DNA of 38,750 nucleotides from Syntrophaceae bacterium CG2_30_49_12 (GTDB lineage: Bacteria > Desulfobacterota > Syntrophia > Syntrophales > CG2-30-49-12), in NCBI GenBank assembly GCA_001873675.1, contig MNZP01000007.1:1-38750 (forward strand), read 5' to 3'. Every line of letters begins with the position of its first letter. The stretch's first letter is position 1. A model generated the notes under the pieces. The model saw only the letters and a list, made by a program, of their open reading frames with translations, was not told the DNA's origin and did no database searches. The translations under genes were made by a program, and so were the position numbers. Positions 20,298 through 37,588 of the stretch are shown here, in pieces.

Positions 20298-20588
20298 TTG
20301 GGAAAGCAAGAAATTTTCGACATCATCAGAAGCAGCAAACCGGAACTGGAATCCCGTTACGGAGTACGGCGGGTCGGACTGTTCGGCTCCTGCGTCAAAG
20401 ATCAACAGCGAAAAAAGAGCGATATTGATATCCTCGTAACCTTCAGCCGTGACATCGATCTTTTCGACTTTGTTGACCTGCGGGAATTCTTGGAAAAAAG
20501 ACTACATACCAAGGTTGATCTGGTCATGGAATCAGCTCTCAAACCAACCATTGGCAAGCGTATCCTGGCCGAGGTCGAATATGTCTAA
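20298..20588 (+). CDS. mntA: Nucleotidyltransferase-domain antitoxin (MNT)
   Basis: It has the GS-x(n)-DxD motif (LFGSCVKD...SDIDILV). It uses a TTG start and is paired with the downstream HEPN gene. Confidence 0.8.
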   Translation: MGKQEIFDIIRSSKPELESRYGVRRVGLFGSCVKDQQRKKSDIDILVTFSRDIDLFDFVDLREFLEKRLHTKVDLVMESALKPTIGKRILAEVEYV

Positions 20589-20931
20589 AAGGCGGGAGAT
20601 AGCCGATTACCTCGATGACATCTTGACCGCCGTATCCGAAGTAGAGGAATTCACCCGTGACATGACCTACGAGACATTTGCGGCAGACAAAAAGACCGTC
20701 AATGCCGTGATCAGGAGCCTTGAAGTTCTTGGCGAAGCCGCCAAGCACATCCCCGCATCTTTTCGCAAAAGGTATCCCGACATCCCCTGGAACAAAATGG
20801 CCGGCATGCGGGACGTGCTTATCCACGATTATATGGGCGTTGATTTGAAGACCGTCTGGAAAGTCGCTCATGAACGGTTGCCGGAGTTAAAGCCCTTGTT
20901 CAAAGGGCTAAGCCTTAAAAAAAGAGATTGA
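20581..20931 (+). CDS. hepT: HEPN-domain (DUF86) toxin
   Basis: It has an R-x4-H motif (RDVLIH) and the DUF86-like string YLDDIL....I..F. Its start overlaps the MNT stop by 8 nt. Confidence 0.85.
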   Translation: MSKRREIADYLDDILTAVSEVEEFTRDMTYETFAADKKTVNAVIRSLEVLGEAAKHIPASFRKRYPDIPWNKMAGMRDVLIHDYMGVDLKTVWKVAHERLPELKPLFKGLSLKKRD

Positions 20932-21492: not shown

Positions 21493-22009
21493 TCACAGTG
21501 GGAGTGAAAGTTGATTGATTCCCACCCCTGCTCTCTCCTTCCAAAGCTCTTCATAAGTTTGAATTTGACCACTGCCACGAATATGCAAGATTTGAACACC
21601 TTCTCGCCGCAAACTCTCGCCAACCAACAAGTTGCGGTGGCAAGAGGAAGGATCCTCTTCAGCACACATCACACAGATACGATACTTCTTCAAACCTTCC
21701 AAAAGCCGACTGATTCCATGTTGAAACGACTCTTTACTTTGCATTGACTGATAGTCCGGTTTACCTGTTTGCGGATTGTAGCAATCTGGGTCACCAGGAC
21801 GACCTCCCAACACATCGCCTAGATAGAGATATTGAATTCCTACTACTTTCAGAATCTGCTCCAAATCATGCGGATTTGTATAAGGCCCAGGGACTACCAG
21901 GATTACTTCGTACATCCACGAGAACCTTAATTTCGGTCTGAGTCAGCAACCGTACAAATGTGTCAGGTGAGTGATTGCTGTGGCCTATCGTGTAGATATT
22001 ACTATCCAT
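21493..22009 (-). pseudogene. DUF488-family gene split by a frameshift
   Basis: The minus-strand ATG at 22009 opens MDSNIYTIGHSNHSPDTFVRLLTQTEIKVLVDVRSNPGS..., which stops at 21866. The rest of the family signature (GIQYLYLGDVLGG...CVMCAEEDPSSCHRNLL) continues in another frame (ORF 21493-21915). Confidence 0.7.
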
Positions 22010-22013
22010 CTCG

Positions 22014-22223
22014 CTAAGCTACCTTTCCCCCAACCAATAAAATAGCATAAGTACCGCTCTTAAGCGACCTACCAAGCAGGATTCGAATTGGTTTTGAATT
22101 GAGTGAAGTAGGAACAGTAGAAGATTGCAATTTCAAAATCAATGGTTCCCCCATAACATATTCGAACCAGTTCGCACATTCTGCCGTTTTGAGGTACATC
22201 TGAACTATTTCAGAAGTATCCAC
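22014..22223 (-). CDS. Hypothetical small protein (69 aa, GTG start), 5 nt upstream of the DUF488 start
   Basis: This is an ORF only, with no SD. Its placement immediately after the attC-like site and before DUF488 is suggestive. Confidence 0.25.
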   Translation of the reverse strand: MDTSEIVQMYLKTAECANWFEYVMGEPLILKLQSSTVPTSLNSKPIRILLGRSLKSGTYAILLVGGKVA

Positions 22224-22239: not shown

Positions 22240-22314
22240 GCCCAACGCTCAGCTTAACCGGCTGGCAATGGAGCGCAGCGGAACTGCCAGTCTGAGTTGA
22301 TGCGGTGGTTAGGG
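22240..22314 (-). mobile_element. attC-like recombination site (75 nt)
   Basis: The minus strand reads CCCTAAC-CACCGCATCAACTCAGACTGGCA-GTTCCGCTGCGCTCCAT-TGCCAGCCGGTTAAGCTGAGC-GTTGGGC. That gives an R'' box, an imperfect stem, a loop, and an R' box matching GTTRRRY exactly. The 3' half resembles the GGCTTAACTCAAGCGTTAGAT of the aadA7 attC as I recall it. Confidence 0.6.
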
Positions 22315-22353
22315 GCCATTTTACGAACCAGATGTATCATGAGTACAAATGCT

Positions 22354-22378
22354 ACTCATAGTCTGTAGACTTTTAGAC
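22354..22378 (+). promoter_or_regulatory. C-box operator for the controller protein
   Basis: ACTCATAGTC-TGTA-GACTTTTAGAC matches the known C-box pattern (GACT-N3-AGTC, TGTA, GACT-N3-AGTC) of C.PvuII/C.AhdI-type systems. It lies 23 nt upstream of the C gene ATG. Confidence 0.8.
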
Positions 22379-22400
22379 ATCTTTTGTCGATATTCTTGCC

Positions 22401-22619
22401 ATGAATAGAGATCCCAAAACAACCCTTGGTGAGAACATCTGGCGTCTCCGAAAAAATGCCGGCTGGTCACAAGAAGAACTTGCTGAAGCTTGCGGTCTTC
22501 ACCGAACCTATATCGGTGCAATTGAACGTGGTGAGCGAAATGTGAGCCTTCAGAATATTGTGGAGATCGCTCGTGCGTTAGGGGTGACTGCTTCCGATCT
22601 TGTGGAGGGAATTTCGTGA
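22401..22619 (+). CDS. Restriction-modification controller (C) protein, XRE-family HTH
   Basis: 72 aa with W.QEELAE..GLHRTYIG.IERGERN.SL.NI..IA.AL. Its stop overlaps the start of the downstream endonuclease gene. Confidence 0.85.
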   Translation: MNRDPKTTLGENIWRLRKNAGWSQEELAEACGLHRTYIGAIERGERNVSLQNIVEIARALGVTASDLVEGIS

Positions 22620-23215
22620 TGCCGTCACCATATAGAGGGCTGAAACCCAATCGATGGCTCGAAATAACAAAAAAGTTATTGGACAACCACCCTCTCGCCC
22701 AAGATGAAATAGTTGATGTAGTTCTCTCGGTGTGGAAATCGATATTTGACTCCAAAATGGGTACAAAGGGATTCCGTATTGGCAAAGACATATTTCCGAA
22801 GCCACAAATAATGGGTTTCTTTTTGCATGAGCTCATTCCCCTCGAACTAGCAGCGCGATATCCTAATAAATGGCGAGGAGAAAAAAATACATCTGACAAG
22901 GACATTGTTTATATACCTGACGATAGATACTCCATTGAAGTCAAGACATCTTCGGACCCAAACCATATTTACGGTAATCGAAGTTACGCCCAGGCAACTC
23001 CATCGAAAGGAAAGAAAGCAAAATCTGGATATTATTTGGCGGTAAATTTTGAGAAATTTTCAAAGACAATTAAATACCCCCACATTAGGCTCATACGTTT
23101 CGGGTGGCTCGATTCCGAAGATTGGATGGGGCAAAAAGCTCCTACAGGCCAACAATCTCGATTACCAACCGAAGTAGAGAACAATAAGCTTCTGGAACTC
23201 TATCGGAAACCTTAA
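22619..23215 (+). CDS. Type II restriction endonuclease candidate (PD-(D/E)xK)
   Basis: About 198 aa with D-x(n)-E-V-K (DKDIVYIPDDRYSIEVK). It is translationally coupled to the C gene (GTGATG) and converges on the methyltransferase. A GTG start at 22616 is the alternative. Confidence 0.65.
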   Translation: MPSPYRGLKPNRWLEITKKLLDNHPLAQDEIVDVVLSVWKSIFDSKMGTKGFRIGKDIFPKPQIMGFFLHELIPLELAARYPNKWRGEKNTSDKDIVYIPDDRYSIEVKTSSDPNHIYGNRSYAQATPSKGKKAKSGYYLAVNFEKFSKTIKYPHIRLIRFGWLDSEDWMGQKAPTGQQSRLPTEVENNKLLELYRKP

Positions 23216-24234
23216 AAAAGCTTCATTTGACTCTGTGCGATTCGTCTCTTCTTTTTAAACGATTCAAATCTATCAACTGCTAGTTGGCAATATTCTGTTT
23301 TTAATTCAATTCCAATAAAGAGCCGCCCCAACCCATACGCAGCTATCCCTGCAGAAACTGAACCAGCAAAAGGATCAATTATCATATCCGCTTGCATAGA
23401 AGATGTTTTAATTATTCTTTCTACTACCCCAAGTGGGAATTGGGCTGGGTGCCCTGTGCGTTCCTTCGAACTGCGTTTGATTCCAGTAGTGACTTTTGGA
23501 AACTCCCATACGTCTGATGGATTCTTCCCAAGCGGATTACATCTATATTTACCGTCCTTTTTTTGATTAGGGTATTTTACGTTCGGATCACGGATTTCAT
23601 CGAGGTTGAACGTGTAGTTTTTTGGATTTTTAACATAAAACAGCCACTTCTCATTACGAGGGCTTAAGTGTCGTTTTGTGGAGACTCCAGCTCCATAATG
23701 CCAGACAACTTCCTGCAAAAGATAGAATTTTGATTTATTCCACAATAAGTAAGGAATAGGCACGCACAAACCCTTTTGAGGCACCTCCAAATAGCCGACA
23801 TTTAGCCAAAATGACCCGTATTCTTTGGTTATTTCATAAATCTTGTCCATCCATTTCTCGCACCATTTTATGTAATCCTCGACATCCAATGGGCTTTCGT
23901 ACTCCTTTCCAATATTGTAAGGAGGAGAGGTTAAAGTTAAATCTACCTGAATTTCATTATCAGCCATTTTTTCAAGGAATTCTGTTGAATCCCCTTGATA
24001 TAAAATAAAACCATTATCTGAATAAAATGGCTTACCAATTGCGCGGTGAAGTGATTTTTCAACTACCAAATGTTTTTCATCGAGCTTTTGTTTTAAATCG
24101 ATTGGAAATGGACACAGAAGAGAAGATGGTGCTATAGCCGTGGGTTTGTGTTTATCGATCCCATTCGCCACATATGTGTTATACTCTTTGGTAGCGATTT
24201 TACGGGATCTATCCTCTGGTATTCCAATTTGCAT
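23212..24234 (-). CDS. Beta-class amino DNA methyltransferase, probably N4-cytosine
   Basis: Motif IV TSPPY (LTLTSPPYN) precedes motif I DPFAGSVS, which is the beta-class order. SPPY rather than DPPY favours N4mC. Confidence 0.85.
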   Translation of the reverse strand: MQIGIPEDRSRKIATKEYNTYVANGIDKHKPTAIAPSSLLCPFPIDLKQKLDEKHLVVEKSLHRAIGKPFYSDNGFILYQGDSTEFLEKMADNEIQVDLTLTSPPYNIGKEYESPLDVEDYIKWCEKWMDKIYEITKEYGSFWLNVGYLEVPQKGLCVPIPYLLWNKSKFYLLQEVVWHYGAGVSTKRHLSPRNEKWLFYVKNPKNYTFNLDEIRDPNVKYPNQKKDGKYRCNPLGKNPSDVWEFPKVTTGIKRSSKERTGHPAQFPLGVVERIIKTSSMQADMIIDPFAGSVSAGIAAYGLGRLFIGIELKTEYCQLAVDRFESFKKKRRIAQSQMKLF

Positions 24235-24303
24235 ATCTTATCCCTTGGTTTGTACGTAGAAAATTTTAAAAATGCTTATCCTAAGAATACCATCTGGGAA
24301 AAC

Positions 24304-24355
24304 TCCTAACCGTTGCTTATCAGGCCGATATGCCTTGATAAACCGCTTATTAGAT
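24304..24355 (-). mobile_element. Short attC-like site / cassette 5' boundary
   Basis: The minus strand reads ATCTAAT-AAGCGG-TTTATCAAGGC-ATATCG-GCCTGATAA-GCAACG-GTTAGGA. The inner stem is 9 bp with one bulged A, and the R'-like core is GTTAGGA. Confidence 0.4.
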
Positions 24356-24729
24356 TGAATGAATTTTCTGGCAAATTTGCCCCATGCCTGTTATCAATAA
24401 AGCGCAGTTATTTTAACAGGGAATAGGAACAGATGTCAACATCAGAAAAACGTAAATTGCTGGATGAAACAAGTGAAATTATGCGTTATGCCACTACTCA
24501 ATCCACATGGAACGGGCATACTGCGACCGGGTTAAATTTTCTCCGTCCCGTTTTTCCCTTGTTCGGAGAAAAGCAGAAAAATGAATTCGTCCCAATTAAC
24601 GCCCAATTAACACGTATTAAATCATAAAATGGAGTGATTATCATGGGCGATCTCCCCATGATACGGTAAATCATAAACGACATTCCCTTGAGCAGGAATG
24701 AAAATCACGTTACTTCGAGGAGTCAGAAA

Positions 24730-25581
24730 ATGCACACAGAATATTCACAGTTATGCTTTACCGGCGCATCAAAATATGTGCTGGATGAAGAACTTGCAAA
24801 AATTGTAAACATCTCCATGGCTCTTGAAATGCCTCTTCTTCTGAAGGGTGAGCCGGGAACAGGAAAAACCATGTTGGCCCATGCAATTGCTGAGGCGCTG
24901 AAAATGAGGCTCATTGCGCTGAATGTGAAATCAAGCATGAAACTTATCGAAGCCCTCTATCAGTATGACACATTAACCAGACTGAACGACAGCCGGTTCG
25001 GGGACTCAAAGCGGGATGTAAGCGACATTGAAGAGTACATCAAAATGGGGAAAATAGGGCAATCCTTTGTTTCAGAAGAAAGGGTGGTGCTGCTGATTGA
25101 TGAGATAGACAAGGCCGACACTGATTTCCAGGACGATATGCTGGATGTGCTTGATCAGATGGAGTTTGACATCATTGAAATTGACAAAACCATAAGAGCG
25201 AAAAACAGACCTGTGATCATCATCACCTCAAATGCCAAAAAAGACCTCTCGGACCCCTTCCTTGGCCGATGCAATTTCCACCACATCGCCTTCCCCGATC
25301 AAGAAATGATGAGAAAAATCGTGACCGTTCATTTCCCTGATATCAGCAAGAGTTTGCTTGATAGCGCCGTAAATGCCTTCTATCGTGTGAGGGATATCCG
25401 GGGGGTGGAAAAGAAGCCTGCTACCCGCGAGCTTATCAATTGGATAAGGGCTCTCCGATCTGACCCTGATTTCAATATCAAAGACCTTGTAAGAGGCGAT
25501 GTCCCTTTTCCGGGAGTCCTTTTTAAGAAAAGTCAGGATTATGCAGTGGCCCAGAACGCTGTGGCTCTGTTTAAAATATAG
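24730..25581 (+). CDS. MoxR-like AAA+ ATPase
   Basis: It has Walker A GEPGTGKT and Walker B LLIDEIDK. The start is at 24730 after GAGGAG; the ORF opens at 24688. Confidence 0.85.
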   Translation: MHTEYSQLCFTGASKYVLDEELAKIVNISMALEMPLLLKGEPGTGKTMLAHAIAEALKMRLIALNVKSSMKLIEALYQYDTLTRLNDSRFGDSKRDVSDIEEYIKMGKIGQSFVSEERVVLLIDEIDKADTDFQDDMLDVLDQMEFDIIEIDKTIRAKNRPVIIITSNAKKDLSDPFLGRCNFHHIAFPDQEMMRKIVTVHFPDISKSLLDSAVNAFYRVRDIRGVEKKPATRELINWIRALRSDPDFNIKDLVRGDVPFPGVLFKKSQDYAVAQNAVALFKI

Positions 25582-25584
25582 ACT

Positions 25585-26778
25585 ATGTTTACAGAGTTCT
25601 TCTATACCTTAAGGGAAGCAGGAATCCCGGTATCTCCCACATCCTTTCTGAGGCTTCAGAAAGCCCTGAGTATGGGGATTATCGTCTCCATTGATGATTT
25701 TTACAGCGCTGCCCGCTCAATACTGGTTAAGAGCGAAAGATACTTTGATCTCTATGATCAGGTTTTCGCCCATCAATTTGAGGGCGAGGAGCTGAAAGAC
25801 CCAACCGAATTTGAGCTTTCTGAAATTGCCAGGGCAATGCTCGATCAATGGCTCAAGAATCCTCTTGAGCTTGCCGAAGCTCTCGGGGTTGATGAAAAAG
25901 AGCTGTCCAGGATGACTCCGGAGGAATTGATCAAGTACTTCCTCGATCGCTTGAAGGAGCAGACCGAGGCCCATCATGGCGGCAGCAGGTGGATAGGCAC
26001 AGGAGGCACTTCGCCTGTCGGGCATTCCGGATACCACCCCGGAGGGATGAGGGTTGGAGGAGTCTCGCACAATAAATCCGCCGTTAAGGTGGCAATGGAT
26101 CGAAGATACCGTGACTATTCCCAGGACGGCCCCCTTACACAGTCGCAGATGGGCGAAGCATTAAAAAGGCTCAGGAACATGGTTCCGGTTGGCCCCAAAG
26201 ACCGGGTTAATGTTGACAAAACCATCTATCAGACGATGAAAAACGCCGGAGAAATCGAAGTCGTTTTTGATCGGCGTCTTAAAGACCGCCTGAAGGTGAT
26301 TCTGGCAATTGATAACGGCGGATGGTCCATGGAACCTTATATCGAGATAGTTCAGACGCTCTTTAACTATGCCAGGGCCCAGTTCAAAGACCTTAAAATT
26401 TTTTTCTTTCATAACACTATCTACGACAAACTCTGGGAAGATCCGCCAAGATGCAGCAAGCCCTTTCCCGTTGATGAACTTGCGCGACTTGACCCTGATG
26501 CAAGGCTTGTTGTAGTAGGGGATGCGAGCATGGCCCCCTATGAGCTTACGAAAACCGGCGGTTCCATTCATTTTGAAGAGATATCAAGAAGGCCAAGCAT
26601 CGAGAGACTCCGCTTTATCAGCAAGACTTTTCGCCATTCCGTCTGGCTTAACCCAAAGCTCGAAATAGAATGGCCCTATACCGGCACCATTCCCATCATT
26701 CGTGAAATATTTCCCATGTTTGAGCTGACTCTGGATGGGCTTGAGAAAGCGGTGAAACGGATGATGAGCAAGAACTGA
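25585..26778 (+). CDS. VWA-domain protein, CoxE-like partner of MoxR
   Basis: 397 aa beginning 4 nt after the MoxR stop. The CoxE-like N-terminus is FF..LR..G.PVS, and there is a C-terminal VWA-like segment (ILAIDNGGSM-like). Confidence 0.7.
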   Translation: MFTEFFYTLREAGIPVSPTSFLRLQKALSMGIIVSIDDFYSAARSILVKSERYFDLYDQVFAHQFEGEELKDPTEFELSEIARAMLDQWLKNPLELAEALGVDEKELSRMTPEELIKYFLDRLKEQTEAHHGGSRWIGTGGTSPVGHSGYHPGGMRVGGVSHNKSAVKVAMDRRYRDYSQDGPLTQSQMGEALKRLRNMVPVGPKDRVNVDKTIYQTMKNAGEIEVVFDRRLKDRLKVILAIDNGGWSMEPYIEIVQTLFNYARAQFKDLKIFFFHNTIYDKLWEDPPRCSKPFPVDELARLDPDARLVVVGDASMAPYELTKTGGSIHFEEISRRPSIERLRFISKTFRHSVWLNPKLEIEWPYTGTIPIIREIFPMFELTLDGLEKAVKRMMSKN

Positions 26779-26806: not shown

Positions 26807-28609
26807 ATGAGAAATATCCTCGAAAGCAAAATCAGGAATATCCCCCGGGCGCCAGGTGTCTATATCATGAGGGACAAAGAGGGGGAAGTTATCTATGTCG
26901 GTAAAGCAAGGGATTTGAAAAGCCGTGTACATGCATACTTTGGGGGAACAGATTCGAGATTCATGATACCTTTTCTTGTCTCCAGGATTCATGATGTGGA
27001 GTTTATCACTACGGAGACGGAAAAGGAGGCCCTGATCCTCGAGAACAATCTCATCAAAGAACACCGGCCCAGATACAATATCAATTTTAGAGATGATAAG
27101 GCTTATTTCAATATCAGGATCAATCTGAATGATCCCTTCCCCCGTTTTCAACTTGTCAGGCGGCCACAAAAAGACGGGGCCAGATATTTCGGCCCCTATC
27201 CTTCCAGCGCCTCGGCAAAAGAAACGCTCCATTTTCTCCAGCAGATATTTCCCATCCGTACCTGCCGGGACCGGGAATTGAAGAGTCGAAAGAGAGCCTG
27301 CCTGGAGTATCAGATGAAAAGGTGTCTTGCCCCCTGCCTCGGTCTCGCCGGCATTATGAGCGAGGCGTACCGGCAACTGGCAAAAGATGGAGCGGCCTTT
27401 CTTGAAGGTCGGGAAAATAAATTGATCGCCGACCTCCATTTTAGGATGAATGCCGCTGCGGAGCGCTTAAACTTTGAGGAAGCCGCCATCCTGAGAGACA
27501 GGATAGCGGCCATCAAGAGGACCCTTGAAAAGCAGCGGATTGTCTCCATGTCATTTAAAGATCAGGATGTCTTCGGTCTCTACCGGGAAGGGAACCTGAC
27601 CCAGATATGCGTCCTTTACATCCGAAAGGGTAAGCTTATCGGGAAAAAGGCATTCCCCCTTTTTAAGATAAGGGCCGGCATTGAGACCTCAGAGATACTC
27701 TCATCGCTTCTAAAACAGTACTATGATGGAGAGGCTTTTATCCCCGGGGAGATTATTGTTCCTGATGATATGGAAGACAGGGCAGTTATAGAGGAATGGC
27801 TTGCGGAAAAAAGGGGGAAAACAGCATCAGTTGTAACGCCTAAAAGAGGGCAGGGGATGGACATTCTCCGTATCGCCCGGCGCAATGCCGAAAATATATT
27901 CAAGACGGAATACTTGTCCACCGATAAATCGGAGGAGACAATCAGGACACTTGCCGAAATTCTTCATCTGAGGAAACCGCCGGAGCGGATAGAATGCTTT
28001 GATATCTCTGATATTGGCGGTCAGTATGCCGTTGGTTCCATGGTGACCTTTGCAGCGGGTAGTCCCTGGAAGGGGGGATACAAACGCTTCAAGATCAAAA
28101 CAGTTACCGGCGCCGATGATTACGGCATGATGTATGAAGTCTTGAGACGGCGGTACAGGAACAGAGAAAATCTTCCTGATCTGATAATGGTTGATGGGGG
28201 GAAAGGTCATCTCGGGGTAGCGGTTTCTGTGTTGCGGGATTTGGGTATAGAGGGGATTGATATAATCAGCCTGGCCAAGGGGGAAAAGGGAGACAGAGTT
28301 TATCTCCCCGGCAGAAAAGACCCCCTTTACCTTTCAAGGTGGCCTGCCTGCCTCTTTTTACTCCAGAGGGTAAGGGATGAGGCCCATCGCTTTGCTATCT
28401 CCTACCACCGTAATTTGAAAGAAAAAGGTGATTTTCAATCTGTCCTTGATGAGATTCCCGGTATCGGCGGGGATAGAAAAAAGGTGTTACTCACCTTTTT
28501 TGGTGACATAAAAAAGATCAAAGAGGCCTCGGTAGAGGCGCTGCAACAGGTTGACGGAATCGGTAAGCACACAGCGGAAAAGATACATACCTTTCTACGG
28601 GGTTATTGA
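26807..28609 (+). CDS. uvrC: Excinuclease ABC subunit C
   Basis: It has an N-terminal GIY-YIG domain (PGVYIMRD..GEVIYVGKA..LK.RV), a UVR domain (FEEAA.LRD) and a C-terminal HhH. Confidence 0.95.
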   Translation: MRNILESKIRNIPRAPGVYIMRDKEGEVIYVGKARDLKSRVHAYFGGTDSRFMIPFLVSRIHDVEFITTETEKEALILENNLIKEHRPRYNINFRDDKAYFNIRINLNDPFPRFQLVRRPQKDGARYFGPYPSSASAKETLHFLQQIFPIRTCRDRELKSRKRACLEYQMKRCLAPCLGLAGIMSEAYRQLAKDGAAFLEGRENKLIADLHFRMNAAAERLNFEEAAILRDRIAAIKRTLEKQRIVSMSFKDQDVFGLYREGNLTQICVLYIRKGKLIGKKAFPLFKIRAGIETSEILSSLLKQYYDGEAFIPGEIIVPDDMEDRAVIEEWLAEKRGKTASVVTPKRGQGMDILRIARRNAENIFKTEYLSTDKSEETIRTLAEILHLRKPPERIECFDISDIGGQYAVGSMVTFAAGSPWKGGYKRFKIKTVTGADDYGMMYEVLRRRYRNRENLPDLIMVDGGKGHLGVAVSVLRDLGIEGIDIISLAKGEKGDRVYLPGRKDPLYLSRWPACLFLLQRVRDEAHRFAISYHRNLKEKGDFQSVLDEIPGIGGDRKKVLLTFFGDIKKIKEASVEALQQVDGIGKHTAEKIHTFLRGY

Positions 28610-30491: not shown

Positions 30492-32072
30492 ATGACACAA
30501 CCCAAACTGGTCGAGACGATGAGTAAACCAGAGTTCTACCCCCACATGCCGGAGAGGGTTGAATTAATCCAGACCCATGCCTCATACATATTTATCGCGG
30601 GGGATTATGTATACAAGGTCAAAAAGGCCGTTGATTTTGGTTTTCTTGATTTTACCGATCTCGATAAGAGGGGGTATTTCTGTCATGAAGAACTGAGGCT
30701 CAACCAGAGGCTGGCCCCGGATACGTATCTTGAGGTTGTCGAAATAGGTGAGGATGCTGGTGGCAACATCGTTCTGGGGAAGGGGGAGCGTATTGTTGAA
30801 TATGCCGTCAAGATGAGAAAACTCCCGCAGGAGAGGATGTTGAAAAAACTACTTGCCGCGGGGGAGGTGGATGTTTCCATCATGGAGGCCATCGCCAGGA
30901 AACTGGCAGACTTCCACAGGAGGGCAGCGACGGGGGACAGGATCAATCTAACAGGAGGGCCAGAGACGATCCGCCGCAACCACGAGGAAAATTTTGCCCA
31001 GACAAAACCCTATCTCGAGATAACCATCCCTGAATATAAGTACAGGTTTATCGAATTCTACGTCTACGACTTTATGGGCAAGAAGGAGTCCCTTTTCAGA
31101 AAAAGGGTGGCAAACCATAGAATCAGGGATTGTCATGGAGACCTGCACATTGAACATATCTGCATCACCGACGGCATTATCATCTTTGACTGTATCGAGT
31201 TTAACGAACGGTTCAGATTTGAGGATGTAGCTGCCGAAGTGGCCTTTCTCGCGATGGATTTAGACTACAACGGCTATCCGGAGCACGCCGATGCCTTTGT
31301 GAGAACCTATGTCGGATATTCTGCTGACACAGATATCCTTACCCTTCTCAATTTTTACAAGTGCTACTACGCCTATGTGCGGGGTAAGGTTACGAGCTTC
31401 CTGATAGATGAAAAGAGCATACAAGAGGAAAAACGTCGGGAAGCGGTGGAGGCCGCCTCCCGCTATTTTGATCTGGCTTACGCATATTCCTCCCGCCTGG
31501 AAAAGCCGACCCTGATCCTGATGGCAGGACTGATGGGAACGGGAAAAAGCGTCCTGGCCAGGAATATCGCCCCCTACCTTGGCGCCGAGGTCATTCGCAC
31601 CGATGTTCTGCGTAAGGAAATTTTCCACCTCATGCCTACGGAACGCCACTACGAAGATTTCGGCAAGGGTATATATTCTGATGATATCTCCCGGAGAACT
31701 TATGAAGAGGCACTTGCCATGGCATGTGAAAAGCTTCAGGAGGGCAGATCAGTCATTATTGATGCTTCCTACAAAAGAAGGGAGGAACGAATGAAGGCAG
31801 TTAGAGCCGCACAGAGGGCACTGGCCGACTTCTTTGTCATTGAGTGTATCTGCCCGGAAGAGGTTATTGCCGAGCGTCTCCATTTGCGGACGTCTGATCC
31901 GGAGGAGGTGTCGGACGGCCGGTGGGAGCTTTTCCAGCTCCAAAAGGGTGATTTTGAGGAGATTACAGAGACTCCGGAAAGGAATCACCTCGTAATAGAT
32001 ACCTCTCTGAAACCGGAAGAATGCGCACAAAGGACTATCTGGCGGATAAAGAGGTACGGTGTAGGGGTTTAA
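30492..32072 (+). CDS. Two-domain protein: aminoglycoside-phosphotransferase-like kinase fold plus a P-loop AAA_33-type kinase
   Basis: The N-terminal APH-like part carries HGDLH..H and D. The C-terminal part carries the P-loop GLMGTGKS. Confidence 0.7.
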   Translation: MTQPKLVETMSKPEFYPHMPERVELIQTHASYIFIAGDYVYKVKKAVDFGFLDFTDLDKRGYFCHEELRLNQRLAPDTYLEVVEIGEDAGGNIVLGKGERIVEYAVKMRKLPQERMLKKLLAAGEVDVSIMEAIARKLADFHRRAATGDRINLTGGPETIRRNHEENFAQTKPYLEITIPEYKYRFIEFYVYDFMGKKESLFRKRVANHRIRDCHGDLHIEHICITDGIIIFDCIEFNERFRFEDVAAEVAFLAMDLDYNGYPEHADAFVRTYVGYSADTDILTLLNFYKCYYAYVRGKVTSFLIDEKSIQEEKRREAVEAASRYFDLAYAYSSRLEKPTLILMAGLMGTGKSVLARNIAPYLGAEVIRTDVLRKEIFHLMPTERHYEDFGKGIYSDDISRRTYEEALAMACEKLQEGRSVIIDASYKRREERMKAVRAAQRALADFFVIECICPEEVIAERLHLRTSDPEEVSDGRWELFQLQKGDFEEITETPERNHLVIDTSLKPEECAQRTIWRIKRYGVGV

Positions 32073-35098: not shown

Positions 35099-35161
35099 AT
35101 CTAACGTAAAGATCAGCCAGAACCGGGTTTCCAGGCGATTGGCTGCATCGACTTGTTGGCT
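35099..35161 (-). mobile_element. attC-like recombination site (63 nt), 6 nt after the HNH gene stop
   Basis: The minus strand reads AGCCAAC-AAGTCGATGCAGCCA-ATCGCCTGGAAACCCGGTTC-TGGCTGATCTTTAC-GTTAGAT. The R' box matches GTTRRRY exactly, and the L''/L' stem has one extrahelical G. Confidence 0.65.
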
Positions 35162-35167
35162 GATTCT

Positions 35168-35722
35168 TCAAGGTTTTGTCTCAAATTTACGCTTCAATAT
35201 TTCGTAGATTTCTCTTTGTTCAGATTTCGAGAGCTTTCTGATTTTCGCTACGATGTTTAGAGCGGTCTCACTGGGTGGCTGTAGGTTTGCTTTGCCTTGA
35301 TTGCAGGCAGAACAGGAGACCCGGAGATTGTCCTTATCATCGGTGCCACCTTGGCTTATGGGAATTATATGATCAATGTGTAGCCTTACCTTACGGTGCG
35401 GATTAAAGGGATCGGTGTCGCCCGGACCGGCGCCGCAAAGCTGGCAGGTGAACCCGTTACGTTCAAGTATCTCGTTTCGTAGTTGAGGGCTGATGGTTCG
35501 TGCAATGACCAGCATTTGGTCAAGGGCCTCTAATATGTATTCGCCGGGTTTCAAGTCTGCTCTGTCTATGTGAGTTTTGATCTGAAACCCTTCCTCATCG
35601 CGTAGCTCTCGTATTCGGCGACCGTACTCGCTGACACCGGCAACCTTGCGGAGTTGCTGGGTCGTCAAAACCTTTCCGACATTGGATAGAAAGTGCTCTC
35701 TCAGCTTGTCTCGTGCACCCAC
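35168..35722 (-). CDS. HNH endonuclease with an N-terminal winged-helix domain (putative restriction enzyme)
   Basis: It has CQLCG...(x)..HIDHIIP...GG.D..DNL...C..CN. The GTG start follows an AAGGAG inside the vsr 3' end. It is the last gene of the dcm-vsr operon. Confidence 0.75.
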   Translation of the reverse strand: MGARDKLREHFLSNVGKVLTTQQLRKVAGVSEYGRRIRELRDEEGFQIKTHIDRADLKPGEYILEALDQMLVIARTISPQLRNEILERNGFTCQLCGAGPGDTDPFNPHRKVRLHIDHIIPISQGGTDDKDNLRVSCSACNQGKANLQPPSETALNIVAKIRKLSKSEQREIYEILKRKFETKP

Positions 35723-35724
35723 AG

Positions 35725-36135
35725 CTACTCCTTTTCAGCAAACCGCTGAAGGCGTCTCATAAGAGCGGTTTCATCTTTTGTTTGACATTGCCAAATAACG
35801 AGCACAGACCAACCTTCTTTCTTCAATTCGCGGAGGTTCCGGCGGTCTCTTGCCATATTCCCATCGATCTTTTTATCCCAGAAAACCCTGTTAGTTTCCG
35901 GCCTTGCCGCTCTCGGACAACCTTTGTGCCCATGCCAAAAGCAACCGTGGACAAAGACCGCTTTCTTTTGGCCTCGAATCACCATGTCAGGTGTGCCTGA
36001 TAATCTCCTTACGTTTCCCCGAAATCGTATTCCGAGATTTCTAAGACAGCGTCGTACCAACTTCTCGGGTAGAGTGTGACACCCTTTGATACTCGCCATA
36101 ATCTGTTTCCGTTTTTGCTCCGTAAACCTGTCCAT
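35725..36135 (-). CDS. vsr: Very-short-patch repair endonuclease
   Basis: It has TLPEK.VR..L...G.RFR....L.G.PD.V......AVFVHGCFWHGH.C and WSVLVIWQC. I chose the MDRFTEQ start at 36135 by alignment to E. coli Vsr. Confidence 0.88.
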   Translation of the reverse strand: MDRFTEQKRKQIMASIKGCHTLPEKLVRRCLRNLGIRFRGNVRRLSGTPDMVIRGQKKAVFVHGCFWHGHKGCPRAARPETNRVFWDKKIDGNMARDRRNLRELKKEGWSVLVIWQCQTKDETALMRRLQRFAEKE

Positions 36136-37348
36136 CAGCTGTCGCTTTCCTGCTCGTAAACAGGGAAAGGACGCAGTCCGCAACTCTGGCGGCGAGCATC
36201 GGCGGGACGGCGTTGCCTATCTGTTTTGCGATTTCAATTTTGGTGCCTACAAACCTGAACGAGTCGGGGAATGATTGGAGTCGCGCTGCCTCGCGGTGAG
36301 TAATAGGGCGGTGTTGACTTGGATGCAAATAGCGCCCTTTTTCCGGCTTAAAGAACTCGGTACGTATGGTGAAGGCAGGTCTGTCCCACCAGAGCCTGCC
36401 GAAAAGGTCGGTACCGCCTTGTGTTTTGCGAATCCAGCAGGGGGGCGTGATTTCGGGTGCACGTCTTTGAAGATCAAAACGATTCATTCCTTCTTTGGGA
36501 ATCGTCTTGTATCTCTCCAAACTCAAGGATGTCGGCGTTCTTCCGAAGTGCAAATCCAAAGGCGGCTGTACCTGCCGGATTTCCGTGCCGACCGGTTCGG
36601 GAAGATCGCCGATCGCGGTCCGAACCGTTCGCCAAGGCTGTACCTGAGAAATATGCTTATTAAATTCGTCGGTAAAAAGAAGGCCCGTTTCCAGCCCTTC
36701 AGGCCTTCGATGTGTTTTCTTGGGCGGGAAAAACTTTGATGGGTCGGTAAACTTGCAACCGACAATAAATGCCCGCCAGCGGGTTTGAGGAACTCCGTAA
36801 TCGGCAGCACAAAGTTTCGCCCAGGACAACTTGAAACCGAGAGATCGGGCAGCAACAACTATCTCGTCATGTTCCTCAGACCCGAGCAATTGAGGAACAT
36901 TTTCCATTACAAAAACCTGTGCGCCGGTATGTTCCACAATTTGGAGATAAGGACGCCAAAGCTGTTTTCTATAGTCGTCCTTCCGTTGTTTATTTAGAAG
37001 GCTGAAACCTTGGCAGGGCGGTCCTCCAATAACCACATCGGCTTTCGGTATCTCACTAATGCGGTTCTCAACTATTTCCAATATGTCGTCGGTTGTGCAG
37101 TGACATCCGAAATTGGCCGCATACGTTTTTGCGGCATAAGCGTTAAAGTCGTTTGCCCAGACAGGTACAAATACCTGTCCGAAGAACTGTGAAAAACCAA
37201 GTGTAAGACCGCCTGCGCCGCAGAACAGGTCTACCAGTCTATAACTGGGGCCGGCATCGCGTAGTAACCCTGCCTGCCTTAGAGAATATACCGATTCATC
37301 GTCAGATAGCGGGTAGAGTCGAGCAGATGTTTTAGTTTTTTTGGTCAT
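36041..37348 (-). CDS. dcm: DNA (cytosine-5)-methyltransferase
   Basis: It has motif I DLFCGAGG, motif IV GGPPCQGFS, motif VI ENV and motif X GNAVPP. Confidence 0.93.
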   Translation of the reverse strand: MTKKTKTSARLYPLSDDESVYSLRQAGLLRDAGPSYRLVDLFCGAGGLTLGFSQFFGQVFVPVWANDFNAYAAKTYAANFGCHCTTDDILEIVENRISEIPKADVVIGGPPCQGFSLLNKQRKDDYRKQLWRPYLQIVEHTGAQVFVMENVPQLLGSEEHDEIVVAARSLGFKLSWAKLCAADYGVPQTRWRAFIVGCKFTDPSKFFPPKKTHRRPEGLETGLLFTDEFNKHISQVQPWRTVRTAIGDLPEPVGTEIRQVQPPLDLHFGRTPTSLSLERYKTIPKEGMNRFDLQRRAPEITPPCWIRKTQGGTDLFGRLWWDRPAFTIRTEFFKPEKGRYLHPSQHRPITHREAARLQSFPDSFRFVGTKIEIAKQIGNAVPPMLAARVADCVLSLFTSRKATADGQVYGAKTETDYGEYQRVSHSTREVGTTLS

Positions 37349-37588
37349 GTTTATATTATGCCTGTTTCTGAGCCTGTAAGCAATAAATTAATGATTTATA
37401 TGTCATCATTTCGCCAGCCAACAAGTTATTCTATAGTTTCCGAATAACTCCACAACTCAAGAAGTTCTTTTTGGGCTATAGACAACGATCATTTATTAGT
37501 TATCTTTGTACCCGCAGTCTACCCCACTCATATCCCATTGATACTATTTAAGAAGGATACTTAACATTACAACGCCGGTAATTATTGT

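What the first reader, a model, noticed from the sequence alone, without database searches (positions are those of the whole stretch)
22240..24355. The C-protein/REase/N4-methyltransferase system is bracketed by two attC-like sites in the same orientation as islet 2
The minus strand at 22314 to 22240 is a 75-nt attC-like site with R'' CCCTAAC and R' GTTGGGC. A shorter one at 24355 to 24304 ends in GTTAGGA. The block between the two G|TT junctions (22246-24309, about 2.06 kb) contains exactly the three RM genes. The hexamer starting the block (TTAGGA) complements the R'' of the downstream site (CCTAA) better than that site's own following R' does (TTGGGC). This is the same cross-complementarity seen for the dcm cassette. 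The RM genes look visibly more AT-rich than the flanking core genes. Both attC-like sites, and the one at 35.1 kb, lie on the minus strand.
Basis: partly seen in the sequence, partly recalled or inferred. Interest (0 to 1): 0.72.

Follow-up and report, generated by a model that had tools for sequence, protein, structure and literature searches.

The report
Restriction-modification integron cassette with one attC
The three restriction-modification genes are a real integron gene cassette sitting alone in a core chromosome region of a groundwater Syntrophaceae bacterium, but only its downstream recombination site is genuine, which makes it an ordinary example of a known way defence genes spread.

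Summary
Half of the finding holds. The site at 22240-22314 (minus) is a genuine attC. Its loop carries the same 12-mer as the blaVIM-2 attC.

The "shorter attC" at 24304-24355 is not supported. It scores 6.3 bits, E 0.33, even when only 197 nt are searched.

Homologous C/R/M modules in other contigs carry the same attC (R'' CCCTAAC) after the C gene. They begin at the same G|TTAGG about 75-86 nt before the methylase start. In one contig (L144) the cassette lies inside a true attC array.

The block is AT-rich (41.2% against 48.6% GC; GC3 0.35-0.40 against 0.52-0.61). No integrase is in the window. The only other attC, at 35.1 kb, closes a Dcm-Vsr-HNH cassette on the same strand, 12.8 kb away.

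Best reading: two solitary cassettes (single attC, no integrase nearby; SALINs) inserted at non-attC G|TT sites, whose attC sites have since eroded. This is a new member of a known kind and of modest interest.

The parts
22240..22314 (-). attC site of the RM cassette. Parse: R'' CCCTAAC | CACCG | L'' CAT[C]AAC ... loop TTCCGCTGCGCTCC ... L' GTTAAG | CTGAGC | R' GTTGGGC. The crossover lies between G22246 and T22245.
   Evidence: R1 scores it 46.8 bits, E 2.6e-12. R2 scores it 37.4 bits, E 7.1e-8. The loop 12-mer CCGCTGCGCTCC occurs only three times in 1.49 Mb of loci: in the blaVIM-2 attC, in a Geoalkalibacter plasmid attC, and here. Homologous attC sites follow the C gene in L144, L135, L132 and L140.
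22246..24309 (-). The gene cassette (2064 bp). It runs from TTAGGA at its 5' end to the G of the attC R' box.
   Evidence: Homology to other copies of the module spans 22347-24258. The GTTAGG start is shared with L132, and with L144 where it abuts a real attC. GC is 41.2%.
24304..24310 (-). Left junction GTTAGGA. The G comes from the target and TTAGGA is the original end of the cassette's R' box.
   Evidence: It lies 76 nt before the M start codon. L132 has GTTAGGG 85 nt before its M start codon, and L144 has G|TTATGGGG. Similarity between the window and L132 starts here and is absent upstream.
24304..24355 (-). 'Site B': a short hairpin (TTATCAAGGC/GCCTGATAA) upstream of the junction. It is not a supported attC. 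It is possibly target (attG-like) sequence or a badly decayed attC.
   Evidence: R2 gives 6.3 bits, E 0.33, in 197 nt. The hairpin folds at z -2.8. R'' reads ATCTAAT, so it lacks the conserved AAC.
23212..24234 (-). M: a beta-class amino DNA methyltransferase with motif TSPPYN. It runs in the attC orientation.
   Evidence: PF01555, E 7.5e-54. The SPPY motif is visible in the translation. The nearest solved structures are M.RsrI and M.MboIIA.
22619..23215 (+). R: a ScaI-family restriction endonuclease.
   Evidence: PF09569, E 4.8e-73, full-length match.
22401..22619 (+). C: a controller protein (Cro/C1-type HTH).
   Evidence: PF01381, E 8.6e-19.
22351..22371 (+). Conserved C-box-like operator upstream of C (GCTACTCATAGTCTGTAGACT).
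   Evidence: It is conserved in every homologous module. Used as a search pattern, it retrieved more copies.
35099..35161 (-). attC of the second cassette (Dcm-Vsr-HNH). Parse: AGCCAAC | AAGTC | GAT[G]CAGCCA ... TGGCTGATC | TTTAC | GTTAGAT.
   Evidence: R1 scores it 23.8 bits, E 1e-4. R2 scores it 27.7 bits, E 4e-5. It starts 6 nt after the HNH stop codon.
35105..37421 (-). Second cassette: Dcm 36041-37348, Vsr 35725-36183, HNH 35168-35722. Its 5' junction is GTTGGCT at 37422-37416.
   Evidence: Pfam matches. GTTGGCT is the exact complement of R'' AGCCAAC and lies 74 nt before the dcm start codon. Only two exact copies occur on that strand in the window.

Best explanation
The C-R-M block is a mobile integron gene cassette. 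It is a ScaI-family type II restriction-modification system that carries its own attC recombination site at 22240-22314.

It sits alone in a core chromosomal region of a Syntrophaceae MAG, between a DUF488 gene and a MoxR-VWA pair, with no integrase nearby. That makes it a 'single attC lacking integron-integrase' (SALIN).

Inferred mechanism:
1. A circular cassette was delivered from elsewhere.
2. An integron integrase acting in trans recombined the folded bottom strand of its attC, at G|TT, with a non-attC chromosomal site that has a GTT core (a secondary or attG site).
3. This left TTAGGA, the old R' remainder, at the upstream junction. The chromosome supplied TTGGGC to complete the resident R' box.
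4. The attC stem has since eroded, so the cassette is probably fixed in place.

The Dcm-Vsr-HNH cassette at 35.1-37.4 kb has the same history and orientation.

Shown: attC identity, cassette boundaries, the same cassette inside an array elsewhere, foreign composition, and no integrase in the window.

Inferred: the integrase-mediated attC x attG event, and present immobility.
For: - attC identity. Covariance models built only from real attC sites hit site A full-length at 46.8 and 37.4 bits, and the 35.1 kb site at 23.8 and 27.7 bits. Nothing else in the window scores below E 0.8.
- Model specificity. The same models recover non-seed class 1 attC sites (aac(6')-29a, arr-3) and whole arrays at 21-43 bits.
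- Loop homology. Site A shares the loop 12-mer with the blaVIM-2 attC.
- The same cassette elsewhere. The same M/R/C order and orientation, the same R'' CCCTAAC and the same start recur in unrelated contexts. L144 is flanked by real attC sites (71.9 and 30.7 bits). L135 has a pseudo-attC, L132 a truncated one, and L140 a gene remnant plus attC.
- Left boundary. Similarity between the window and L132 begins at GTTAGG and is absent upstream of it.
- Covariation. In the L stem, 10 of 15 pairs show changes on both sides and 92.8% of cells are paired.
- Composition. GC is 41.2% against 48.6%, and GC3 0.35-0.40 against 0.52-0.61.
- No integrase. No ORF in the window that could encode a protein of integrase size matched an integrase family, and the surrounding genes are core genes.
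- Second cassette. The dcm cassette starts with the perfect complement of its own R''.
- Published mechanism. SALINs and integrase-mediated insertion at 5'-GWT-3' genome sites are described in bioRxiv 10.1101/2022.09.11.507474.
Against: - No empty site was found. All of the roughly 22 population contigs carry the block, and the predicted empty junction gave 0 hits in JGI metagenomes.
- No syntenic relative was available to show presence or absence.
- No integrase is known for this genome, because only this contig was visible.
- Site B has the attC spacing (7+5+3+bulge) and a real hairpin (z -2.8). A decayed second attC therefore cannot be excluded. One apparently real mini-cassette attC in L144 scored only 13.6 bits.
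- Low GC continues about 420 nt past the left junction.
- My models come from 12 and 33 sites of a few families and are not the IntegronFinder model.
Confidence: 0.7

Rival explanations
1. One reading: a two-site cluster (mini-CALIN). Site B would be a real but degenerate attC from an upstream cassette or from an old array. The RM cassette would have entered or been retained by attC x attC recombination.
For:
- It has R''+5+3+bulge spacing and a hairpin that beats 197 of 200 shuffles.
- In L144 the same cassette does follow a real attC.
- An apparently real mini-cassette attC in L144 scored only 13.6 bits, so the models miss some sites.
Against: - It scores 6.3 bits, E 0.33, in only 394 nt of search space. 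At that rate a hit this good is expected about once per kb, and the GTTAGGA half is supplied by the cassette itself.
- R'' is ATCTAAT, without the AAC triplet.
- No cassette-like unit or further attC lies upstream.
- There is no similarity to the sequence upstream of the same junction in L132.
- The dcm cassette likewise has no attC at its left end.
Confidence: 0.2
2. The RM module arrived by a route unrelated to integrons, such as homologous recombination of a larger island or RM-driven rearrangement. The attC would be a dead passenger relic from an earlier life in an array, and the G|TT ends would be coincidental.
For: - Homologous modules in L136 and L138 have no attC at all, so the module also exists outside cassettes.
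- Site A folds no better than shuffled sequence.
- Low GC extends beyond the left junction.
- GTTAGGG-like heptamers are common, about one per 2.4 kb per strand.
Against: - Homology to independent copies starts at the GTTAGG and ends with the attC, which is what a cassette-sized mobile unit predicts.
- A second cassette in the same window shows a perfect 7 of 7 match between its first heptamer and its own R''.
- No transposase, integrase or repeat flanks the block.
Confidence: 0.08
3. Site A is an ordinary terminator or repetitive palindrome between DUF488 and the C gene, not a recombination site.
For: - It is intergenic and GC-rich (61%).
- Rfam has no hit.
- It did not appear among the 25 longest inverted repeats of the region.
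Against: - It gives full-length covariance-model hits at E 1e-8 to 1e-12.
- It shares a loop with a clinically mobile attC.
- It travels with the RM genes into unrelated genomes.
- It has no T-run and was not called by the terminator scan.
- Rfam produced no match of any kind in this window, so its silence says nothing about site A.
Confidence: 0.02

Closest known systems
[quoted passage not shown] Loot et al., bioRxiv 10.1101/2022.09.11.507474; earlier secondary-site work by Recchia, Stokes and Hall is cited from my own knowledge.
   Same: - One covariance-model-supported attC directly closing a gene block.
- No integrase and no second attC within 4 kb.
- The upstream junction is a bare G|TT, which fits the 5'-GWT-3' consensus.
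- The resident R' box is a hybrid of cassette and target sequence.
   Different: - The cassette is large (2.06 kb, three genes, two of them antisense to the attC).
- The host is an uncultured Syntrophaceae.
- Two such cassettes, both RM-type, lie 12.8 kb apart on the same strand.
- The integrase and the insertion event are inferred, not observed.
Classical attC sites of mobile integrons, for example the blaVIM-2 cassette attC
   Same: - R''/R' boxes, 5-nt spacer, 3 bp plus an extrahelical base, and a variable loop.
- An identical loop 12-mer, CCGCTGCGCTCC.
   Different: - The window copy has an eroded stem (one L-box mismatch and a 5x3 internal loop).
- Its single-strand folding is not better than shuffles (z -0.15, against -2.1 for VIM-2 and -3.9 for the L144 copy).
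Phage-defence cassettes of integrons (BRiCs) and their pseudo-attC homologues outside integrons (bioRxiv 10.1101/2024.07.02.601719)
   Same: A defence system carried as a cassette. Homologues are found in arrays, outside integrons with a pseudo-attC, and without any attC.
   Different: Here the cargo is a classical C-regulated type II RM system rather than a small single-gene defence. No phage-protection phenotype has been tested.
[quoted passage not shown]
   Same: attC sites on one strand with no integrase in the window.
   Different: Only one supported attC lies within the usual 4 kb clustering distance. The next is 12.8 kb away, across core genes (UvrC, POR).

Membership tests
attC site (integron cassette recombination site) | Inverted core boxes R'' RYYYAAC and R' GTTRRRY | tested here: met
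   Site A reads CCCTAAC ... GTTGGGC; only the first base departs from R. The 35.1 kb site reads AGCCAAC ... GTTAGAT. Site B reads ATCTAAT ... GTTAGGA and lacks the AAC.
attC site (integron cassette recombination site) | L''/L' boxes 5-6 nt inside the R boxes, with an extrahelical base after 3 bp on the '' arm | tested here: met
   Site A: CAT[C]AAC against GTTAAG. The 35.1 kb site: GAT[G]CAGCCA against TGGCTGATC. The spacing is the same as in the aadA2, aadB and VIM-2 attC sites taken from plasmids.
attC site (integron cassette recombination site) | Score against a covariance model of real attC sites within the range of true sites | tested here: met
   Site A scores 46.8 and 37.4 bits. The 35.1 kb site scores 23.8 and 27.7 bits. 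Non-seed true sites score 21-43 bits. Site B scores 6.3 bits and does NOT meet this. The models are my own, not IntegronFinder's.
attC site (integron cassette recombination site) | Stable folding of the bottom strand into the R/L hairpin | tested here: inconclusive
   Site A: -12.4 kcal/mol, z -0.15, and the minimum-energy fold is shifted from the canonical pairing. The 35.1 kb site: -7.2 kcal/mol, z -0.28. Reference attC sites: z -2.1 (VIM-2) and -3.9 (L144).
attC site (integron cassette recombination site) | Recombined by an integron integrase | not testable with these tools
   This needs a recombination assay.
Integron gene cassette | The same gene(s) plus attC unit found in different contexts, including cassette arrays, with ends at G|TT | tested here: met
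   In L144 the cassette lies between real attC sites. It also occurs in L132, L135 and L140 in unrelated contexts. The shared 5' end is GTTAGG and the shared R'' is CCCTAAC.
CALIN | At least 2 attC sites within about 4 kb, with no integrase | tested here: not met
   Only site A is supported near the RM genes. The next attC is 12.8 kb away.
SALIN | A single attC with an adjacent CDS, and no other att site or intI nearby | tested here: met
   ORFs of at least 250 aa were assigned to non-integrase families, apart from one 298-aa ORF with no Pfam match and a few antisense ORFs inside known genes that were not scanned. The rest of the genome was not visible.
C-protein-controlled type II RM system (ScaI family) | REase, cognate amino-methyltransferase, HTH controller and a conserved operator | tested here: met
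   PF09569 E 4.8e-73, PF01555 E 7.5e-54, PF01381 E 8.6e-19. A 21-nt element upstream of C is conserved across homologues. N4-cytosine specificity is inferred only from the SPPY motif and the ScaI analogy; it was not tested.

The most novel reading that the evidence does not exclude
Both solitary cassettes, and the L132 copy, join the chromosome at sites where an AAC/AAT box lies 1-5 nt upstream of the crossover GTT: GCAAC-G-GTT, GAATAAC-TT-GTT and ATATAAT-CAATC-GTT. When the pre-insertion targets of the two window cassettes are rebuilt, they are loop-less inverted pairs of R-box-like heptamers. If this is general, natural attG sites would have a recognisable double-stranded core made of two inverted integrase-binding boxes. 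That core would explain where cassettes land in genomes. It would also let RM and defence cassettes scattered through core genomes of integron-poor lineages be traced to integrase activity in trans.
Probability: 0.15. Interest if true: 0.55.

Novelty: new member of a known kind. Interest (0 to 1): 0.35.

Why it matters
This is a clean natural example of a complete, self-regulated restriction-modification system travelling as an integron cassette. The same cassette family is caught at every stage of its life: inside an attC array, as a solitary chromosomal insertion, with a decaying pseudo-attC, and with no attC at all. That supports the recently proposed route by which integron cassettes, including defence genes, spread into ordinary chromosomal sites outside integrons. 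It extends that route to an uncultured anaerobic groundwater lineage (Syntrophaceae). It does not reveal a new mechanism.

Tried and rejected
- Rfam at gathering thresholds: 0 hits in the window. This is uninformative for site A.
- Single-strand DNA folding of the two sites as a test. It does not discriminate: site A is no better than shuffles although it is clearly an attC homologue.
- Inverted-repeat scan. Neither site appears among the 25 longest pairs shown.
- Terminator scan. Neither site was called.
- Exact-protein look-ups of M and MoxR to find population variants without the block. Every contig carries it.
- Genome-contig scan with MoxR. The 80 relatives, at 79-88% identity, conserve only the MoxR-VWA pair, so no presence/absence comparison was possible.
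- Predicted empty-site junction in JGI metagenomes: 0 hits.
- First look-ups with the long TTG/GTG ORF starts failed. I repeated the MoxR look-up with the ATG start and used M in place of R.
- blastn of site A against plasmids: one meaningful hit, a Geoalkalibacter pGSUB1 attC after a methyltransferase gene. That methyltransferase is only distantly related to M.
- Four-way MAFFT alignment of the 5' leaders. It aligned poorly, so I relied on pairwise comparison.
- Looking for a site-B-like attC upstream of the L132 copy and of the dcm cassette. Only loop-less R-box pairs at 4.5-8.2 bits were found.
Full report
**What is at the coordinates**

The window is the 38,750-nt contig of the MAG "Syntrophaceae bacterium CG2_30_49_12". 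Near-identical contigs occur in many groundwater metagenomes.

The gene order around the finding is as follows:

| Feature | Coordinates | Strand |
|---|---|---|
| DUF488 | 21493-21915 | - |
| site A | 22240-22314 | - |
| C (HTH_3) | 22401-22619 | + |
| R (RE_ScaI, E 4.8e-73) | 22619-23215 | + |
| M (N6_N4_Mtase) | 23212-24234 | - |
| site B | 24304-24355 | - |
| 64-aa ORF | 24433-24627 | + |
| MoxR-type AAA | 24730-25581 | + |
| VWA | 25585-26778 | + |
| UvrC | 26807-28609 | + |

The rest of the window is core chromosome. It encodes ribosomal proteins S6 and L9, DnaB, a sigma factor, cytochrome bd, MutL, MiaA and pyruvate:ferredoxin oxidoreductase. No integrase was found.

**Testing the two sites**

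Rfam gave no match in the window, so I built an attC model from real sites.

I took class 1 integron arrays from plasmids by searching with IntI1. From them I read off the attC sites of blaVIM-2, aac(6')-Ib, aadB, aadA2, arr-3 and aac(6')-29.

Site A shares the loop 12-mer CCGCTGCGCTCC with the VIM-2 attC. In 1.49 Mb of loci held at that point, the 12-mer occurred only three times: in VIM-2, in site A, and in a textbook attC after a methyltransferase gene on Geoalkalibacter plasmid pGSUB1. A pattern scan of IMG/VR contigs gave more members of this loop family.

- Model R1 was built from 12 seeds, none from the window. It recovered non-seed class 1 attC sites and whole cassette arrays at 21-43 bits.
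- Model R2 was built from 33 such sites.

I scanned the window with filters off:

| Site | R1 | R2 |
|---|---|---|
| Site A, 22240-22314 (-) | 46.8 bits, E 2.6e-12 | 37.4 bits, E 7.1e-8 |
| 35.1 kb site, 35099-35161 (-) | 23.8 bits, E 1e-4 | 27.7 bits, E 4e-5 |

Nothing else scored below E 0.8.

Site B scores 6.3 bits, E 0.33, when only its 197-nt spacer is searched.

**Is the block a cassette, and where does it end?**

The M protein has thousands of homologues. I looked at the contigs of four close ones.

The same M-forward, R-reverse, C-reverse module occurs in unrelated gene contexts. Nucleotide homology to the window runs from 22347/22350 to 24258.

Beyond the C-box, three genomes continue with AAAATG(G/C)CCCCTAAC plus an attC left arm:
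- The window has a complete attC.
- L135 has a pseudo-attC lacking R' (23.7 bits).
- L132 has only the left arm.

A metagenome pattern scan (C-box, then a 20-50 nt gap, then CCYTAAC) added two more cases:
- L144: the cassette has a pristine attC (71.9 bits). It is preceded by a 169-aa ORF with its own attC (30.7 bits) and by an ORF-less mini-cassette whose R' ends G|TTATGGGGC. This is a true array.
- L140, L142 and L143: only M fragments, the C-box and an attC (20.2 bits) remain.

At the 5' end:
- The window reads G|TTAGGAG, 76 nt before the M start codon.
- L132 reads G|TTAGGGG, 85 nt before its M start codon. This is the perfect complement of R'' CCCTAAC.
- L144 reads G|TTATGGGG, directly after a real attC.

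Upstream of that GTT, the window and L132 share nothing. The local alignment score was below the shuffle mean.

They rest on comparative evidence and not on the one-base cross-complementarity argument. That argument is weak alone, because GTTAGGG-like heptamers occur about once per 2.4 kb per strand.

Across six attC hits, the L stem is 92.8% paired, and 10 of 15 pairs show changes on both sides. That alignment was fitted to the model, so these counts lean towards the model's structure.

**Composition**

The cassette is 41.2% GC against 48.6% for the window. This falls in the lowest 3% of 2064-nt windows.

GC3 is 0.35-0.40 for C, R and M, against 0.52-0.61 for AdeDeam, MoxR, VWA, UvrC and MutL.

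Low GC continues for about 420 nt past the left junction. That stretch looks like a long spacer before MoxR, and its 64-aa ORF was not found next to MoxR in the relatives examined.

**The second cassette**

Dcm (36041-37348), Vsr (35725-36183) and an HNH nuclease (35168-35722) all lie on the minus strand. The 35.1 kb attC starts 6 nt after the HNH stop codon.

Seventy-four nt before the dcm start codon lies GTTGGCT (37422-37416). This is the exact complement of that attC's R'' AGCCAAC. Only two exact copies occur on that strand in the window.

No attC lies at its left end either. Its GC is ordinary, at 49.9%.

**Mechanism**

The pattern at both cassettes is:
- one real attC at the 3' end;
- the original R' remainder at the 5' end;
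- a bare G|TT joined to non-attC sequence;
- no integrase nearby.

This is what integrase-mediated recombination of a cassette attC with a non-attC genomic site produces. Such isolated cassettes have been named SALINs. Their target sites have been named attG, with a 5'-GWT-3' consensus, and they recombine as double-stranded DNA (bioRxiv 10.1101/2022.09.11.507474).

That an integrase did this here is inference. I found no empty site and no syntenic relative.

The window's attC sites are eroded. The bottom strand of site A folds at -12.4 kcal/mol, z -0.15. The L144 copy folds at -19.7 kcal/mol, z -3.9, and the VIM-2 attC at -14.0 kcal/mol, z -2.1. This suggests the cassettes are now fixed in place.

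Site B remains a possible decayed attC. It has the right spacing and a hairpin at z -2.8, and one apparently real mini-cassette attC scored only 13.6 bits. I put that reading at about 0.2.

**Comparison with what is known**

All of the following are already described:
- attC sites;
- cassettes at secondary or attG sites;
- SALIN and CALIN elements;
- defence genes in integron cassettes, with pseudo-attC or attC-less homologues outside integrons (bioRxiv 10.1101/2024.07.02.601719).

This locus is a new member of that kind. Its particular points are:
- It is a full C-regulated ScaI-family RM system carried as a 2.06-kb cassette.
- The same family is seen in an array, solitary, decaying and attC-less.
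- Two RM-type solitary cassettes lie in one 38-kb core region of a Syntrophaceae genome.

N4-cytosine specificity of M is suggested only by its SPPY motif and by the ScaI analogy. The nearest solved structures are adenine methyltransferases.

**Verdict**

- It is a new member of a known kind.
- Interest: 0.35.

Noticed in passing
window 35099-37422 (minus strand): A second solitary cassette: Dcm C5-methyltransferase, Vsr and an HNH nuclease, followed 6 nt later by a covariance-model-supported attC. Its first heptamer, GTTGGCT, is the exact complement of its own R'' AGCCAAC. Unlike the RM cassette, its GC (49.9%) matches the host.
   Followed up: partly
window 24310-24318 and 37422-37431; L132 741-759: All three non-attC left junctions have an AAC/AAT box 1-5 nt upstream of the crossover GTT: GCAAC-G-GTT, GAATAAC-TT-GTT and ATATAAT-CAATC-GTT. 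The rebuilt pre-insertion targets of the two window cassettes look like loop-less inverted R-box pairs. With three cases this may be chance.
   Followed up: partly
window about 22584 and 22887 (seen in L005/L097 and L141): Some population contigs carry a 1-nt insertion near the end of the C gene, giving a 271-aa C-R fusion ORF. One carries a 1-nt deletion inside R, giving a frameshift. These are either subpopulations with an inactivated restriction enzyme or assembly errors. M is intact in all of them.
   Followed up: partly
window 30492-32072 (compare L004 and L096): In one population variant, most of the 526-aa APH/AAA_33 (zeta-toxin-like) gene is replaced by a 155-aa ORF followed by CheR, GGDEF and CheB genes. 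This is either a second variable spot or a rearrangement breakpoint.
   Followed up: no
window 21493-22223: The DUF488 ORF matches the Pfam profile only from position 31. Some gene callers place a 47-aa overlapping ORF across its start (window about 21866-22009). The gene next to the cassette may be frameshifted or truncated at its N-terminus. The 69-aa ORF at 22014-22223 has no family.
   Followed up: no
window 20298-20931: A MNT (nucleotidyltransferase) / HepT toxin-antitoxin pair lies between adenine deaminase and the DUF488 gene, together with an unassigned 98-aa ORF. These are accessory-looking genes, but no attC was detected near them.
   Followed up: partly
L140 1246-1937 (the same in L142 and L143): A decayed copy of the same cassette. 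Only two M fragments, the C-box and a 20.2-bit attC remain, and the R and C genes are gone.
   Followed up: partly
L104 10965-12048 (Geoalkalibacter subterraneus plasmid pGSUB1): A textbook attC (82.9 bits; it was a seed) lies 2 nt after the stop codon of a different, distantly related DNA methyltransferase. It sits in a region with other RM-like genes, so this may be another methyltransferase cassette of the same attC loop family.
   Followed up: no
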